Source: an uncultured Clostridia bacterium (GTDB lineage: Bacteria; Bacillota; Clostridia; TANB77; CAG-508). From it: a DNA stretch of 64,000 nt. The translations under genes were made by a program, and so were the position numbers. Each line of letters starts with the position of its first letter. Within the stretch, counting starts at the first letter, position 1. The notes beneath the pieces are model-generated. The model was given only the letters and a program-made list of their open reading frames with translations. It was not told where the DNA came from and searched no databases. The stretch lies in NCBI GenBank assembly GCA_934120675.1, contig CAKOUU010000002.1:37455-101454 (forward strand), given 5' to 3'. Shown piece after piece: positions 42,902 through 45,688 of the stretch.

Positions 42902-43285
42902 TTATTTGATGTTGCTTTTTTTAAAATTCTCTTCAAGTTGAAGTTTTACTAAATCATTAGCAAGTCTACTAATAACTTTTTTATTATAGTCATTTAATTG
43001 TGAATAATCTTCTAAAAATTTATTATCAACTAAATCTGCAAAAGCGGAAGAACTTGTATCAATCAAGCCACTAAAAAGAAAATCTGTAGAGATATTAAGT
43101 GCATTACACAAACTAACAATAGTAGTAGCACTACCAAAAGCTATACCACGCTCTAATTGGCTGATATATCTTGGTGATAAAGAAGTTTTTTCTGCAAGAA
43201 CTTCTTGTGTGTACTTAGTTTTAGTTCTAGCTAATTTCAATTTTTTTCCAATATTTTTTCTTAATTTTTTTTCGATTTCTGTCAT
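42902..43285 (-). CDS. XRE-family HTH transcriptional regulator
   Basis: YTQEVLAEKTSLSPRYISQLERG. Confidence 0.75.
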   Translation of the reverse strand: MTEIEKKLRKNIGKKLKLARTKTKYTQEVLAEKTSLSPRYISQLERGIAFGSATTIVSLCNALNISTDFLFSGLIDTSSSAFADLVDNKFLEDYSQLNDYNKKVISRLANDLVKLQLEENFKKSNIK

Positions 43286-43486
43286 AAAATACCTCCAAAT
43301 ATATAAGAATTATTTAGTTTTGAGTATATCAATCATAATTAAATAATAACACGAAGTATTAGTACGAAAAGATTTTATTTGTAATACTGTTAATAGTACA
43401 AAAAATAATTTTAAATATCAGATAAAAAACAGAAAATATTGTAAAAAATTTCAAACATAAAAATATAATAAAAAAATTGTTACAGT

Positions 43487-43713
43487 TCAGTAGGAAAAAT
43501 TCCTGAAATACCTGTGAATGATATTTTTCATACTTTCTCAGGTTCCCTACATGATGTTAACAAATTCTAATGTAAATACTCTAACAATACCCGAAGGCAG
43601 GACCCTTTAGAGCATTTACTTAAGAATTTGTAACACTATTTTGGTCACATTCGAAATATATTCAAAATATCATTCACAAGTGTTTCAAGGATTTTTTTAC
43701 TGAACTGTAACAA
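43487..43713. repeat. ~230-bp imperfect nested palindrome (P2) in the divergent XRE/mraZ promoter region
   Basis: Perfect 16-bp outer IR ttgttacagttcagta / tactgaactgtaacaa. Second IR tgtgaatgatattt / aaatatcattcaca. Inner 30-bp IR tgttaacaaattctaatgtaaatactctaa / ttagagcatttacttaagaatttgtaaca around loop caatacccgaaggcaggaccct. The inner IR is homologous to the arms of P1. Confidence 0.8.
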
Positions 43714-43840
43714 AAAATTTATAAAAAAATAAAAAAATTTTAAAAAAACTATTGCAAAATAAATAAAGTTATATTACAATTTACATTAAGTGGAGAAAAG
43801 TGGTATAAAGTGGTAGAGAAATGAAAAGAGGTGAAGACCA

Positions 43841-44266
43841 TTGTTAATGGGTGAATATGAGCATACTCTAGATGCCAAGGGCAGATTAATAATGCCTGCA
43901 AAATTAAGACAAGACATTGGAGATAAATTCGTTATAACTAAAGGATTAGACGGATGTTTATTTGCTTTTTCACAAGAAGAATGGTTGAACTTTGAAGCAA
44001 AACTAAAATCACTACCACTATCAGATAGAAACGCAAGAAACTTTGTTAGATTTTTCTTATCAGGAGCAACTGAATGTGAGATTGATAAACAAGGTAGGTT
44101 TCTAATTCCAAATAATTTACGTTCAGCAGCAGAACTAGAAAAAGAAGCAGTAATAATTGGAGTAGGTACTAGGTTAGAAATATGGAATAAGGCAAATTGG
44201 GAAAAATGTGACGAGAATATATCTGTAGATGAAATTGCTGAAAATATGACTATGCTTGGTATATAA
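43841..44266 (+). CDS. mraZ: Transcriptional regulator MraZ
   Basis: M(L/F)[24 protein letters not shown] start after RBS agaggtga. Confidence 0.9.
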
Positions 44267-44284
44267 CTTGCAAAAGTTTATATA

Positions 44285-44600
44285 GAATACAAAAGACATA
44301 ATTACGAAAGAAAGACATACAAAAGATTAAAAATACAAAAGATAAGTTTACAAAAGAAAATGTTACTAAAGATTGCTAAAGTAACTAAAGAAAAGATTAC
44401 AAAAGATTAAATTACAAAAGTTAAAAGAACAAAAGAAAATGGTACAAAAGATAAATGTACTTGAGAAAATATGTTCAAAAGAAAACTAATACTAAAGATT
44501 TTACAAAAGATAAAAAATTACAGAAGAATATCAAAAAACATAAGTAAAAAATCCAAAGAAAAGATTACTAAGGATTTTATAAAAATACCAAAAGAAAAAA
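44285..44600. repeat. Degenerate ~15-bp tandem array (TACAAAAGATAAAWT, ~18 units) in the 490-bp mraZ-rsmH spacer
   Basis: Unit starts fall at 44288, 44318, 44334, 44349, 44364, 44398, 44413, 44428, 44443, 44458, 44475, 44490, 44502 and 44518. A-tracts are phased at ~15 bp. Confidence 0.75.
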
Positions 44601-44610
44601 CATATAATGC

Positions 44611-44644
44611 AAACAGCTGGTACTTTTACCAGCTGTTTTGCGTC
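44611..44644 (+). terminator. Perfect 12-bp-stem hairpin, terminator/attenuator-like, ahead of rsmH
   Basis: aaacagctggta cttt taccagctgttt then tg. Confidence 0.55.
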
Positions 44645-44758
44645 TATAAAAGAAAAATATGAGTATTTGAATATAAACTTATTAAAAAAGGTTTTAGAAA
44701 AATCGTATATATAATTTTATAGAATATGTAATATCAAAAACTTTTAAGAGGTGAAAAA

Positions 44759-45688
44759 TTGGAATTTAAGCATAAACCTGTAATGTTAGAAGAATGCATA
44801 TGTGGGTTGAATATTAAACCTGATGGAATATATGTTGATGGAACTCTTGGAGGAGCAGGACATAGTAGAGAAATAGTAAAAAGATTATCAAAAGAAGGAT
44901 TACTAATTGGAATAGATAGAGATGAAGACGCTCTAAAAGCAGCAAAAGAAAACTTAAAGGAATTCCGAAATGTAAAATTCGTTAAAGATAATCATGACAA
45001 TATAAAGCAAATTTTAGAAGACATCGGAATAGAAAAAGTTGATGGAATCTTACTTGATTTAGGTGTTTCTTCATATCAATTAGATGAAAGAAATAGAGGA
45101 TTCAGTTATCTAGGTGAAAATGAACTTGATATGAGGATGGATAAAAATCAGGAATTATCTGCGAAAAATGTTGTAAATGAGTATCCAGAAGAAAAACTTG
45201 CAAATATCATATATGAATATGGTGAAGAAAGATTTTCAAGGCAAATAGCAAGAAACATATGCGAATATAGAAAAGAACATTTAATTAATACTACAAAACA
45301 ATTAGTAGAAATAATAGAAAAATCAATTCCAAAATCAAAACAAAATGATGGACATCCTGCAAAAAGGACATTCCAGGCAATTAGAATTGAAGTAAATGAT
45401 GAAATTAAACCATTATATAATACAGTAAAAGATTGCATAGAATGCTTAAAACCACAAGGAAGATTATGTATTATAACATTTCATTCTTTGGAAGATAGAG
45501 CTGCTAAAAATGCAATGTTAGATGCAAAAGGGAAATGCACTTGTCCACCTGATTTACCATATTGTGTATGTGGTGCAAAATCACTGGGAAAAGTAATTAC
45601 TAGAAAACCAATTGTAGCTACGAAAGAAGAACAGGAAGAAAATAGCAGAAGCAAAAGCGCAAAACTTAGAATTTTTGAAAAAGAATAA
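44759..45688 (+). CDS. rsmH: 16S rRNA (cytosine1402-N4)-methyltransferase RsmH (MraW)
   Basis: TTG start with RBS aagaggtg. Motifs [15 protein letters not shown] and FHSLEDR. Confidence 0.9.

What the first reader, a model, noticed from the sequence alone, without database searches (positions are those of the whole stretch)
44285..44644. 490-bp insert between mraZ and rsmH: ~18 copies of a 15-bp A-tract repeat followed by a strong hairpin terminator
mraZ and rsmH normally abut. Here they are separated by a degenerate tandem array (TACAAAAGATAAAWT) that ends in a perfect 12-bp stem hairpin (aaacagctggta/taccagctgttt). The 15-bp phasing of A4-5 tracts predicts intrinsically curved DNA. The terminator would uncouple rsmH and the dcw genes from the mraZ promoter unless antiterminated. 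It could be a minisatellite, a protein-binding array (MraZ binds repeats) or an attenuator.
Basis: seen in the sequence. Interest (0 to 1): 0.55.

Follow-up and report, generated by a model that had tools for sequence, protein, structure and literature searches.

The report
Conserved repeat array between mraZ and rsmH
The 492-base spacer between the cell-division genes mraZ and rsmH is a conserved, undescribed element: about 18 copies of the motif UACAAAAGA in unstructured A-rich sequence, bracketed by two hairpins. It occurs in at least 80 species of uncultured gut Clostridia and most likely acts in the RNA to uncouple expression of the two genes.

Summary
The spacer (44267-44758) holds about 18 units with core TACAAAAGA, mostly 15 nt apart. 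They are followed by a perfect 12-bp hairpin (HP2, 44611-44638; -22.8 kcal/mol).

It is not a local insert. All 79 related species with rsmH on the fetched stretch have a 175-570 bp spacer of the same design:
- a weak AU hairpin over the mraZ stop codon (HP1);
- 5-17 units with C3, A6 and G8 essentially invariant and A-rich spacers;
- a conserved last unit 25-26 nt before HP2;
- the rsmH ribosome-binding site about 36 nt after HP2.

HP2 shows compensatory changes and 26 G·U against 6 A·C cells, so it folds in the + strand RNA. The array is the least structured 317-nt stretch of the window.

A U-tail follows HP2 only in the window's subclade, so "terminator" is not the general role. A-tracts recur every 7.5 bp, not 10.5, so curvature is not supported. 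The canonical MraZ boxes lie upstream of mraZ. Array length is stable within species. Rfam has no match.

Best reading (0.42): a cis-acting RNA platform for a sequence-specific factor. The motif and its tolerance pattern resemble the MazF-Da site UACAAA. The partner is unidentified.

The parts
43752..43780 (+). Promoter-like site upstream of mraZ (TTGCAA-17-TACAAT), the presumed operon promoter
   Evidence: The same hexamers appear in most of the listed relatives, and all 79 loci have a promoter-like site of at least 9/12 here.
43790..43813 (+). Three GTGG boxes at 10-bp spacing, the canonical MraZ operator type
   Evidence: Read. GTGG-N6-GTGG-N6-GTGG is present upstream of mraZ in 78 of 79 species. 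That MraZ binds such repeats is established knowledge, not tested here.
43841..44266 (+). mraZ (141 aa, TTG start)
   Evidence: PF02381, 6.8e-41.
44259..44283 (+). HP1: weak AU-rich hairpin GUAUAUAACUU-GCAA-AAGUUUAUAU that encloses the mraZ stop codon
   Evidence: -4.8 kcal/mol, z = -0.5, so not significant alone. GGT ATA TAA CTT..AAGTTTATATA is almost invariant in 79 species, synonymous sites included. Loop insertions keep complementarity in L017, L024, L026, L043, L049 and L068. L053 carries a free-standing copy. L194 has a compensated stem CTCTTG/CAAGAG.
44286..44605 (+). Array of about 18 units, core (U)ACAAAAGA plus an A-rich spacer, modal spacing 15 nt. A first, variant unit (TTGCAAAAGT, 44268-44277) sits in the HP1 loop.
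   Evidence: It is the least structured 317-nt segment of the window (-19.0 kcal/mol against a mean of -51.0, sd 11.5, with 0 of 157 windows as unstructured).
44586..44603 (+). Conserved terminal unit TACCAAAAGAAAAAACAT
   Evidence: Conserved across the clade at a modal 25-26 nt upstream of HP2. It is lost together with HP2 in L019, L025, L029, L032 and L034.
44611..44638 (+). HP2: 12-bp perfect stem with loop CUUU and core CAGCUGGUA/UACCAGCUG
   Evidence: Present in 69 of 79 species. 9 of 12 pairs show changes on both sides, reached by 0 of 500 shuffles. The core has 26 G·U cells against 6 A·C cells. No other copy occurs in the window or in 450 kb of flanks.
44636..44639 (+). Short U tract (UUUU, then G) partly inside the stem; terminator-like in this subclade only
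44746..44753 (+). rsmH Shine-Dalgarno sequence AAGAGGTG
   Evidence: Read. AGAGGTG precedes rsmH in nearly all relatives.
44759..45688 (+). [quoted passage not shown]

Best explanation
The spacer is a cis-acting RNA element inside the mraZ-rsmH (dcw) transcript. Transcription starts at the MraZ-controlled promoter upstream of mraZ and runs through the spacer.

The RNA has three parts. HP1 folds over the mraZ stop codon. A long, deliberately unstructured A-rich stretch displays 5-20 copies of UACnAAAG. HP2 is a stable hairpin about 36 nt before the rsmH start.

The repeats are a multivalent landing pad for one sequence-specific factor that reads single-stranded RNA. The most likely factor is an endoribonuclease of MazF/EndoA-like specificity, or an RNA-binding regulator. 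Action on the array separates the fates of the two halves of the operon. The mraZ part ends in HP1 and the rsmH-dcw part begins with HP2, so the ratio of regulator to division genes can be set after transcription.

In the window's own subclade HP2 has also acquired a short U-tail and probably terminates part of the transcripts.

Shown here: conservation, motif constraints, RNA-strand pairing of HP2, lack of structure in the array, no room for a promoter after HP2.

Inferred: that the spacer is transcribed from the upstream promoter, that a factor binds or cleaves the units, and what the hairpins protect.
For: 1. Clade-wide conservation with turnover. All 79 species have a 175-570 bp spacer holding units of the same kind. 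Arrays of close species (92-97% RsmH identity) are not alignable unit for unit, yet they keep the motif.
2. Position-specific constraint. There are 308 exact TACAAAAGA copies in 79 spacers. C3, A6 and G8 tolerate almost no substitution, while T1, A4 and A9 do. This is the signature of recognition by a macromolecule.
3. RNA-level evidence. HP2 keeps pairing through compensatory changes (CAACUGG/CCAGUUG, CAGUUGG/CCAACUG, CAGCUGAAG/CUUCAGCUG), with 9 of 12 pairs changed on both sides and 0 of 500 shuffles as high. Its core has 26 G·U cells against 6 A·C cells. Loop length ranges from 4 to 30 nt, which a double-stranded DNA site would not tolerate.
4. The array is the least structured stretch of the window. 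Even its spacers are A-rich and T-poor (A/T 2.4, against 1.3 in the noncoding DNA upstream of mraZ).
5. Every unit is on the sense strand. No cluster occurs elsewhere in 64 kb plus 450 kb of flanks. All metagenome arrays of this unit type with 7 or more units sit between mraZ and rsmH.
6. HP2 ends a median 36 nt before rsmH (43 of 70 at 40 nt or less) and no promoter-like site follows it in the window. rsmH must therefore be transcribed through the element.
7. Precedents from the literature: RNase Y cleavage between saeP and saeQ is guided by a downstream double-stranded structure and shifts the operon's expression ratio (PMC5449607). EndoA has a strong primary-sequence motif, whereas RNase Y has a weak one (PMC11780869). 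MazF-Da cleaves U^ACAAA, is tolerant at A4 and strict at A6 (PMC8634880). That is the same tolerance pattern as positions 4 and 6 of the unit.
Against: There are no expression data, so transcription across the spacer and any processing are inferred.

No partner protein is identified. No MazF, Hfq or CsrA homologue lies in the window, although the window is only a few percent of the genome.

G8 is invariant but lies outside the six bases read by MazF-Da. ACAAAAG is not avoided in the sense strand of the dcw genes.

HP1 is thermodynamically weak and shows almost no sequence variation, so it is supported mainly by loop variants and one distant compensated case.

The sharp 15-nt spacing mode (292 of about 750 intervals) is not required by independent RNA sites. 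The same core at the same 15-bp spacing acts at the DNA level in lambda-type origins.

Five or six species lack any second hairpin but keep the array, so the hairpin-protection part of the model is not universal.
Confidence: 0.42

Rival explanations
1. DNA-level element. The array is a row of direct-repeat sites for a DNA-binding protein, or an easily melted, strand-asymmetric region, which acts on transcription or topology between mraZ and rsmH. It would be related in kind to the A/T-rich repeats next to the iterons of lambda-type replication origins.
For: The same core ACAAAAGA occurs three times at the same 15-bp spacing immediately after the O-protein iterons, inside Phage_rep_O genes, in about 45 viral contigs of 28-60% GC. 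Lambda itself has two exact units and a degenerate third. Two phages read the repeat in different frames (TKDTI and QKKLL), so there the constraint is on the DNA. The host spacing mode is exactly 15 bp. The spacer is 21% GC. An XRE-family HTH gene is a conserved divergent neighbour in 49 of about 60 loci.
Against: The viral match was forced by the search pattern, and the spacers differ (phage [ACT]A[ACT]TAT, host TAAAAT). More than half of the host intervals are not 15 bp (range 11-40 and beyond), which is awkward for cooperative binding on a helix. Orientation is strictly the sense strand and the spacers are A over T. Both flanking hairpins behave as single-strand structures. No iterons or initiator gene lie nearby, and the element sits inside an operon.
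Confidence: 0.17
2. Trans-acting sponge RNA. Termination or processing at HP2 releases an array RNA, alone or as a long mraZ 3' UTR. This RNA titrates an RNA-binding protein or a small RNA, as CsrB/RsmZ do for CsrA and CrcZ does for Hfq/Crc.
For: The design matches: many copies of a short single-stranded motif, rapid unit turnover with the motif kept, and an ending hairpin, which in the window's subclade carries a U-tail. Hairpins at both ends would protect an excised fragment, as proposed for operon-derived fragments in E. coli (PMC6156199). UpsM shows that a dcw leader can yield a small RNA by partial termination (PMC5089854).
Against: Most species have no U-tail and only about 36 nt between HP2 and rsmH, so a discrete terminated RNA is not general. 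No conserved promoter lies at the 5' end of the array. No GGA motifs are present. Many units do not form clean A-R-N runs, and the invariant bases are C and G rather than A. The element is always tied to one locus.
Confidence: 0.15
3. No dedicated function. An A-rich 15-bp minisatellite expanded by slippage in a tolerant spacer, next to an ordinary mraZ terminator.
For: The 15-bp mode and copy-number differences between species fit slippage. Mobile elements insert into the same spacer in several species, so it tolerates change.
Against: Slippage homogenises whole units. Here the spacers vary while three core positions are invariant across at least 80 species. Length is fixed within species. 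The terminal unit, HP1 and HP2 are conserved in position. The U-tail is absent in most species. Outgroups manage with 32 nt.
Confidence: 0.1
4. Curved DNA or an extended UP-element that drives an internal rsmH promoter just upstream of HP2.
For: A -10-like CATATAAT/TAAAAT lies 5-15 nt before HP2 in 30 of 70 species, against 23% in background windows. In 13 species a promoter-like match of at least 9/12 ends there. A start site there would give a 5'-terminal hairpin.
Against: There is no power at the helical period. No -35 element is conserved, and the site is absent in more than half of the species. The consensus scan finds no promoter there in the window.
Confidence: 0.06
5. Secondary MraZ operator array.
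For: MraZ binds direct repeats, and the array lies in its own operon.
Against: 0 of 79 spacers contain GTGG-N6-GTGG, while 78 of 79 have the canonical triple upstream of mraZ. The unit has no GTGG and a 15-bp rather than 10-bp period.
Confidence: 0.03

Closest known systems
Intercistronic processing cassettes (saeP-saeQ RNase Y site in S. aureus; cggR-gapA in B. subtilis; puf and pap operons)
   Same: An untranslated spacer inside an operon, with a single-stranded A/U-rich target next to a stable downstream stem. The outcome is a shifted ratio between an upstream regulator and downstream genes (PMC5449607). The cggR-gapA, puf and pap cases are from general knowledge.
   Different: Those have one cleavage site and no repeated sequence motif. 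Here 5-20 copies of a strictly constrained 9-mer occupy 150-400 nt. Processing has not been shown here.
MazF/EndoA target clusters (MazF-Da site U^ACAAA; UACAU-rich sraP in S. aureus)
   Same: The first six bases of the unit equal the MazF-Da site, with the same tolerance at position 4 and strictness at position 6. The site is in single-stranded RNA. Transcripts enriched in a toxin's site are a known idea (the sraP case is from memory).
   Different: G8 and A9 lie outside the MazF-Da site. No MazF gene has been linked to these genomes. The sites are in a noncoding spacer and are regularly spaced.
Protein-titrating repeat RNAs (CsrB/RsmZ, about 18-22 GGA sites; CrcZ, A-rich CA motifs)
   Same: Many copies of a short motif in one RNA, unit turnover with the motif conserved, a terminal hairpin and an A-rich motif (as in CrcZ).
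   Different: It is embedded between two cistrons rather than being an independent gene. It has no GGA. The motifs lie in unstructured sequence, not hairpin loops. No conserved promoter of its own was found, and no terminator outside one subclade.
TRAP-binding trp leader (11 G/UAG repeats before a terminator)
   Same: A repeat array directly upstream of a hairpin in a leader, which could couple a multimeric RNA-binding protein to termination.
   Different: No alternative antiterminator can form, because the array is too U-poor to pair with the HP2 arm. Unit spacing is 15 nt, not 5-6. The terminator tail is absent in most species.
UpsM leader of the Rhodobacter dcw cluster, and the actinobacterial mraW RNA motif
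   Same: RNA-level control elements attached to the same operon. UpsM contains a partial terminator (PMC5089854). The mraW motif lies upstream of mraW/rsmH (from memory).
   Different: UpsM lies upstream of mraZ and has no repeats. No Rfam family, the mraW motif included, matches this region even at E up to 10.
A/T-rich repeats of lambda-type replication origins
   Same: The same ACAAAAGA core, 15-bp spacing and A-rich strand.
   Different: About three copies next to initiator iterons, inside a phage replication gene, acting on DNA. The host array has up to about 20 copies, no iterons, and flanking RNA hairpins.

Membership tests
Intrinsic (Rho-independent) terminator | Stable G+C-rich stem-loop | tested here: met
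   HP2 folds at -22.8 kcal/mol, z = -7.1.
Intrinsic (Rho-independent) terminator | U-tract immediately 3' of the stem, conserved with the stem | tested here: inconclusive
   The window has UUUU then G, and three of those U pair with the upstream AAA. The scan criterion (at least 5 T in 8) is not met. Across species, 16 of 16 tetraloop hairpins but only 17 of 54 long-loop hairpins have a T-run of at least 3.
Intrinsic (Rho-independent) terminator | 3' ends of transcripts at the U-tract | not testable with these tools
   No transcript data are available.
MraZ operator | Direct repeats containing GTGG(G/T) at 10-bp spacing | tested here: not met
   0 of 79 spacers have GTGG-N6-GTGG. The canonical triple is upstream of mraZ at 43790-43813 and in 78 of 79 species.
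CsrB/RsmZ-type CsrA sponge | Multiple GGA motifs, mostly in hairpin loops | tested here: not met
   The unit core is ACAAAAGA. GGA occurs only once or twice near the 3' end in one subclade, and the array is unstructured.
CsrB/RsmZ-type CsrA sponge | Independent gene with its own promoter and terminator | tested here: not met
   No conserved promoter lies at the 5' end, and the U-tail is not conserved.
CrcZ-like Hfq sponge | A-R-N / AAnAAnAA motifs bound by the Hfq distal face | tested here: inconclusive
   Units contain AAA-AGA(-AAA) runs, but the invariant positions are C and G, not A. Whether these genomes encode Hfq is unknown (one search covers the window only).
MazF/EndoA cleavage-site cluster | Repeated match to a characterised toxin recognition sequence in single-stranded RNA | tested here: met
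   UACAAA is the first six bases of the unit. There are 308 exact TACAAAAGA copies in 79 spacers, and the tolerance at position 4 and strictness at position 6 mirror MazF-Da. The array is unstructured.
MazF/EndoA cleavage-site cluster | A cognate MazF-family toxin in the same genomes, and cleavage at the sites | not testable with these tools
   Whole genomes of the clade could not be read. None is in the 64-kb window.
TRAP-type attenuator | Mutually exclusive antiterminator and terminator structures controlled by protein binding to the repeats | tested here: not met
   No alternative pairing for the HP2 arms appears in the fold. The array has few U and very little G or C to pair with CAGCUGGUA. 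The terminator tail is missing in most species.
mraW RNA motif and any other Rfam family | Match to the covariance model | tested here: not met
   No relevant hit at E up to 10 in 43300-45000. No family reaches its gathering score anywhere in the window.
Variable-number tandem repeat / contingency locus | Copy number differs between strains of one species | tested here: not met
   Ten contigs of one species all have 317 nt. L215 and L261 equal L021 at 304 nt. L279 and L298 equal L034 at 191 nt. There is one 25-nt variant, L256.
Intrinsically curved A-tract DNA | A-tracts phased with the helical repeat (10-11 bp) | tested here: not met
   Power at 10, 10.5 and 11 bp is at or below the shuffle mean. 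The pooled peak is at 7.5 bp.
Lambda-type origin A/T-rich region | Adjacent initiator iterons and a replication initiator gene | tested here: not met
   The neighbours are mraZ and rsmH. No iteron-like repeats flank the array.

The most novel reading that the evidence does not exclude
A new class of operon-embedded repeat RNA: a dedicated array of recognition sites for one sequence-specific RNA-reading factor, for example a MazF-like endoribonuclease, placed between the regulator mraZ and the division genes. Its role would be to make expression of the whole dcw cluster answer to that factor. It would be ancestral to a large clade of uncultured gut Clostridia. A still bolder variant is that the same 9-mer at the same 15-nt phase in lambda-type origins is read by a related, widely conserved factor.
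Probability: 0.3. Interest if true: 0.8.

Novelty: new variant of a known kind. Interest (0 to 1): 0.6.

Why it matters
How the dcw cluster is regulated after transcription starts is poorly understood, and the balance between MraZ and RsmH is known to matter in E. coli (from memory: MraZ overproduction is toxic and RsmH counteracts it). This is a large, conserved, sequence-specific element sitting at exactly that junction, in at least 80 species of abundant but uncultured gut bacteria.

If it is a binding or cleavage array, it would be a rare case of a multi-site regulatory RNA embedded inside an essential operon. Its design is simple enough to test in a reporter. The strict C3/A6/G8 signature also gives a direct bait for finding the partner protein.

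Tried and rejected
- Rfam search of the region at E up to 10 and of the whole window at gathering score: nothing relevant.
- Coding reading: all frames are broken by stops, arrays are not alignable between close species, and the 63-aa ORF at 44471-44662 runs through HP2. Rejected.
- Long-range pairing of AAGTTTATAT (44274-44283) with ATATAAACTT (44671-44680): the 3' partner lies in sequence absent from most relatives. Rejected.
- Internal promoter at HP1 (TTGGTA-17-TATATA, 8/12, no T at the last -10 position; TTGCAA with no -10 at 16-18 nt): rejected by reading.
- Avoidance of ACAAAAG in the sense strand of downstream genes: none found. It ranks mid-table among the 42 permutations.
- Search for MazF, Hfq and CsrA in the window: none, but uninformative for the genome.
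- The search for homologous proteins with MraZ returned only relatives of at least 85% identity, so it was useless for finding the clade boundary. The boundary came from the metagenome scan instead: array present at 66% MraZ identity (L194), absent at 61% (L254).
- Literature search for the 9-mer: only primers and unrelated sequences.
- Metagenome scan for the unit pair: every array of this unit type with 7 or more units was at mraZ-rsmH. The rest were 1-6-unit matches, many clearly inside coding sequence, so no second locus or regulon was found.

Full report
**Observation.** mraZ (43841-44266) and rsmH (44759-45688) are identified by Pfam. They are separated by 492 bp at 21% GC, against 28% for the window. 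Tandem Repeats Finder reports period-15 arrays. ACNAAAG occurs 13 times between 44289 and 44503, mostly at exactly 15-bp steps. A weight matrix finds 15 units in 44267-44533, and weaker ones run on to 44595. This is the only cluster of three or more units on either strand of the 64 kb. The hairpin 44611-44622 / 44627-44638 is perfect and folds at -22.8 kcal/mol, z = -7.1.

**Comparative picture.** A scan of one genome per species with MraZ returned 80 loci. All are uncultured gut Clostridia, including Clostridium sp. CAG:389, CAG:343 and CAG:440, and UMGS1516 at 99% identity. rsmH follows mraZ in the 79 loci long enough to show it, and the spacer is 175-570 bp in all 79. Every spacer has the same design.
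- Directly after the stop codon comes the block CTTGCAAAAGTTTATATA. With GGTATATAA of the coding end it forms a weak AU hairpin, HP1. Both arms are nearly invariant, synonymous sites included. Loop insertions keep complementarity, and L053 has a free-standing copy.
- Next come 5-17 units with consensus (T)ACAAAAGA(T/A)AA. Spacing peaks at 15 nt (292 of about 750 intervals) with a tail to 23.
- A better conserved last unit, ACCAAAAGAAAAAACATA, lies a modal 25-26 nt before HP2.
- HP2, with core CAGCTGGTA/TACCAGCTG, is present in 69 of 79 species.
- HP2 ends a median 36 nt before the rsmH start codon.

A metagenome scan extends the design to a relative at 66% MraZ identity. This relative, L194, has compensated versions of both hairpins. 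A relative at 61% identity (L254) has a 32-nt spacer and no array. All 36 arrays of this unit type with 7 or more units found there lie between mraZ and rsmH.

**What is constrained.** Counting every single-base variant of TACAAAAGA in the 79 spacers gives an unbiased profile. There are 308 exact copies. C3, A6 and G8 accept essentially no substitution. T1, A4 and A9 are tolerant. Arrays of species with 92-97% identical RsmH cannot be aligned unit by unit, yet they keep this profile. The selected property is therefore the motif and its multiplicity, not a particular sequence. Within a species the array is stable: ten contigs from different assemblies all have 317 nt, other same-species pairs are equal or nearly so, and there is one 25-nt variant.

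**RNA or DNA.**
- HP2 keeps pairing through changes on both sides in 9 of 12 pairs, a level reached by 0 of 500 shuffles.
- Its core has 26 G·U cells, which would be A·C on the other strand, against 6 of the opposite kind.
- Its loop ranges from 4 to 30 nt. These three points argue for a hairpin in the + strand RNA, not a double-stranded DNA site.
- HP2 is unique to this locus in the window and in 450 kb of flanks.
- The array RNA is the least structured 317-nt stretch of the window: -19.0 kcal/mol against a mean of -51.0, sd 11.5, with 0 of 157 windows as unstructured.
- The spacers between cores are A-rich and T-poor (A/T 2.4, against 1.3 in noncoding DNA upstream of mraZ). This fits selection for single-strandedness.
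- All units are on the sense strand.

**The terminator question.** In the window HP2 is followed by UUUU then G. The scan's terminator criterion is not met. Across species, all 16 tetraloop-type hairpins (the window's subclade) have a T-run of at least 3, but only 17 of 54 long-loop hairpins do. HP2 usually sits 21-40 nt before rsmH, and no promoter-like site follows it in the window. rsmH and the dcw genes must therefore be transcribed through it. HP2 is a conserved 5'-proximal structure of the rsmH message, and termination is at most a subclade-specific addition. The operon promoter (TTGCAA-17-TACAAT) and three GTGG boxes at 10-bp spacing lie upstream of mraZ in 78 of 79 species. No spacer contains such boxes.

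**Rejected parts of the first interpretation.**
- A-tract phasing shows no power at 10-11 bp. The pooled peak is at 7.5 bp, so planar curvature is not predicted.
- MraZ binding is not supported.
- Strain-to-strain variability is not seen.

**Mechanism.** The anatomy is a weak hairpin at the end of the upstream cistron, a long unstructured run of one strictly defined motif, and a strong hairpin just before the downstream ribosome-binding site. This is what an intercistronic uncoupling cassette would look like. Any cut or binding event in the array leaves mraZ ending in HP1 and rsmH-dcw beginning with HP2.

Known precedents cover parts of this design. RNase Y processing between saeP and saeQ is guided by a downstream duplex and shifts the operon's expression ratio (PMC5449607). 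RNase Y prefers to cut after G in A/U-rich sequence (PMC4608709), but in B. subtilis its consensus is weak, whereas the MazF homologue EndoA has a strong sequence motif (PMC11780869).

The unit's first six bases are the site of MazF-Da from a member of the Clostridia. That enzyme cuts U^ACAAA, is tolerant at A4 and strict at A6 (PMC8634880). The unit shows the same tolerance pattern. This is a resemblance, not a test. G8 is outside that site, and no toxin gene could be linked to these genomes. I therefore commit to a multivalent single-stranded RNA platform for a sequence-specific factor that uncouples mraZ from rsmH-dcw, at 0.42. An endonuclease is my preferred partner.

**Rivals.** A trans-acting sponge (CsrB- or CrcZ-like) shares the multiplicity and turnover. 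It lacks its own promoter and, in most species, a terminator (0.15).

A DNA-level role gets 0.17 because of an unexpected finding. ACAAAAGA three times at 15-bp spacing is the conserved A/T-rich segment right after the O-protein iterons in lambda-type origins. Two phages read it in different frames. Lambda itself has two exact units and a degenerate third. That match was forced by my search pattern and the spacers differ, so it may be coincidence. It is nevertheless the only other place where this motif and phase were found to be conserved.

Neutral minisatellite (0.10), curved DNA or UP-element (0.06) and MraZ operator (0.03) are disfavoured for the reasons above.

**Novelty.** Nothing in Rfam 15 matches. 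The literature search found dcw-linked RNA elements only upstream of mraZ (UpsM) or inside coding regions. The element is best described as a new variant of known kinds (repeat-bearing regulatory RNAs and intercistronic processing cassettes), with no identified partner.

Noticed in passing
Loci L081-L181 (for example L113:2855-2892, L112:2555-2592, L100:4366-4403); lambda J02459 39119-39165 (L182:220-266): ACAAAAGA three times at 15-bp spacing is a conserved segment immediately after the iterons of lambda-type origins, inside Phage_rep_O genes, in about 45 viral contigs of 28-60% GC. The iterons differ between phages but this segment does not. Two phages translate it in different frames (TKDTI and QKKLL), so the constraint is on the DNA. 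Lambda has two exact units and a degenerate third.
   Followed up: partly
window 43752-43813: Textbook operon control region: promoter-like TTGCAA-17-TACAAT followed by three GTGG boxes at 10-bp spacing, then a Shine-Dalgarno sequence and a TTG start for mraZ. Conserved in 78 of 79 related species.
   Followed up: yes
window 44259-44283: HP1, an AU-rich hairpin that encloses the mraZ stop codon. The last two sense codons and the stop (GGT ATA TAA) are invariant at synonymous sites. The three species that lack the 3' arm use ATT instead of ATA.
   Followed up: yes
window 42902-43285 (- strand): A 127-aa XRE-family HTH protein is transcribed divergently from mraZ. A homologue is present upstream of mraZ in 49 of about 60 related loci with enough upstream sequence. 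It could be a further regulator of the cluster.
   Followed up: partly
L075:3783-3977, L028:3422-3568, L075:5570-5642, L069:5281-5325: A repeat element of about 150 nt (83-87% identity between copies, internal inverted repeat) is inserted between HP2 and rsmH in L075 and, in the opposite orientation, in the HP2-less spacer of L028. Partial copies lie elsewhere. It looks like a miniature mobile element. L004 and L042 carry similar TTTTCGCG-containing inserts.
   Followed up: partly
window 43554-43636: A long imperfect inverted repeat (about 24 bp stem, G+C-rich loop, -24.9 kcal/mol) lies in the divergent promoter region between the XRE gene and mraZ. It produced the chance microRNA-family hits in Rfam and was not found in any related locus.
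   Followed up: partly
window 44545-44581: A small hairpin AAAUCC...GGAUUU encloses one unit in its loop. It is conserved only in the window's closest relatives (L001-L010) and contains the only GGA of the array.
   Followed up: no
L001, L003, L006, L011, L021, L035, L057, L078 (5' ends): Eight of 80 assemblies break 130-215 nt upstream of mraZ, in the extremely A/T-rich stretch before the promoter. This is probably an assembly or coverage artefact of low-complexity sequence.
   Followed up: no
L205 and L240 (metagenome contigs, 46-49% GC): An unrelated array with a 9-nt period (GCACCAAAG and variants) scored as many 'units' but has no mraZ or rsmH nearby.
   Followed up: no
window 1-64000: No Rfam family reaches its gathering score anywhere in the 64-kb window.
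   Followed up: no
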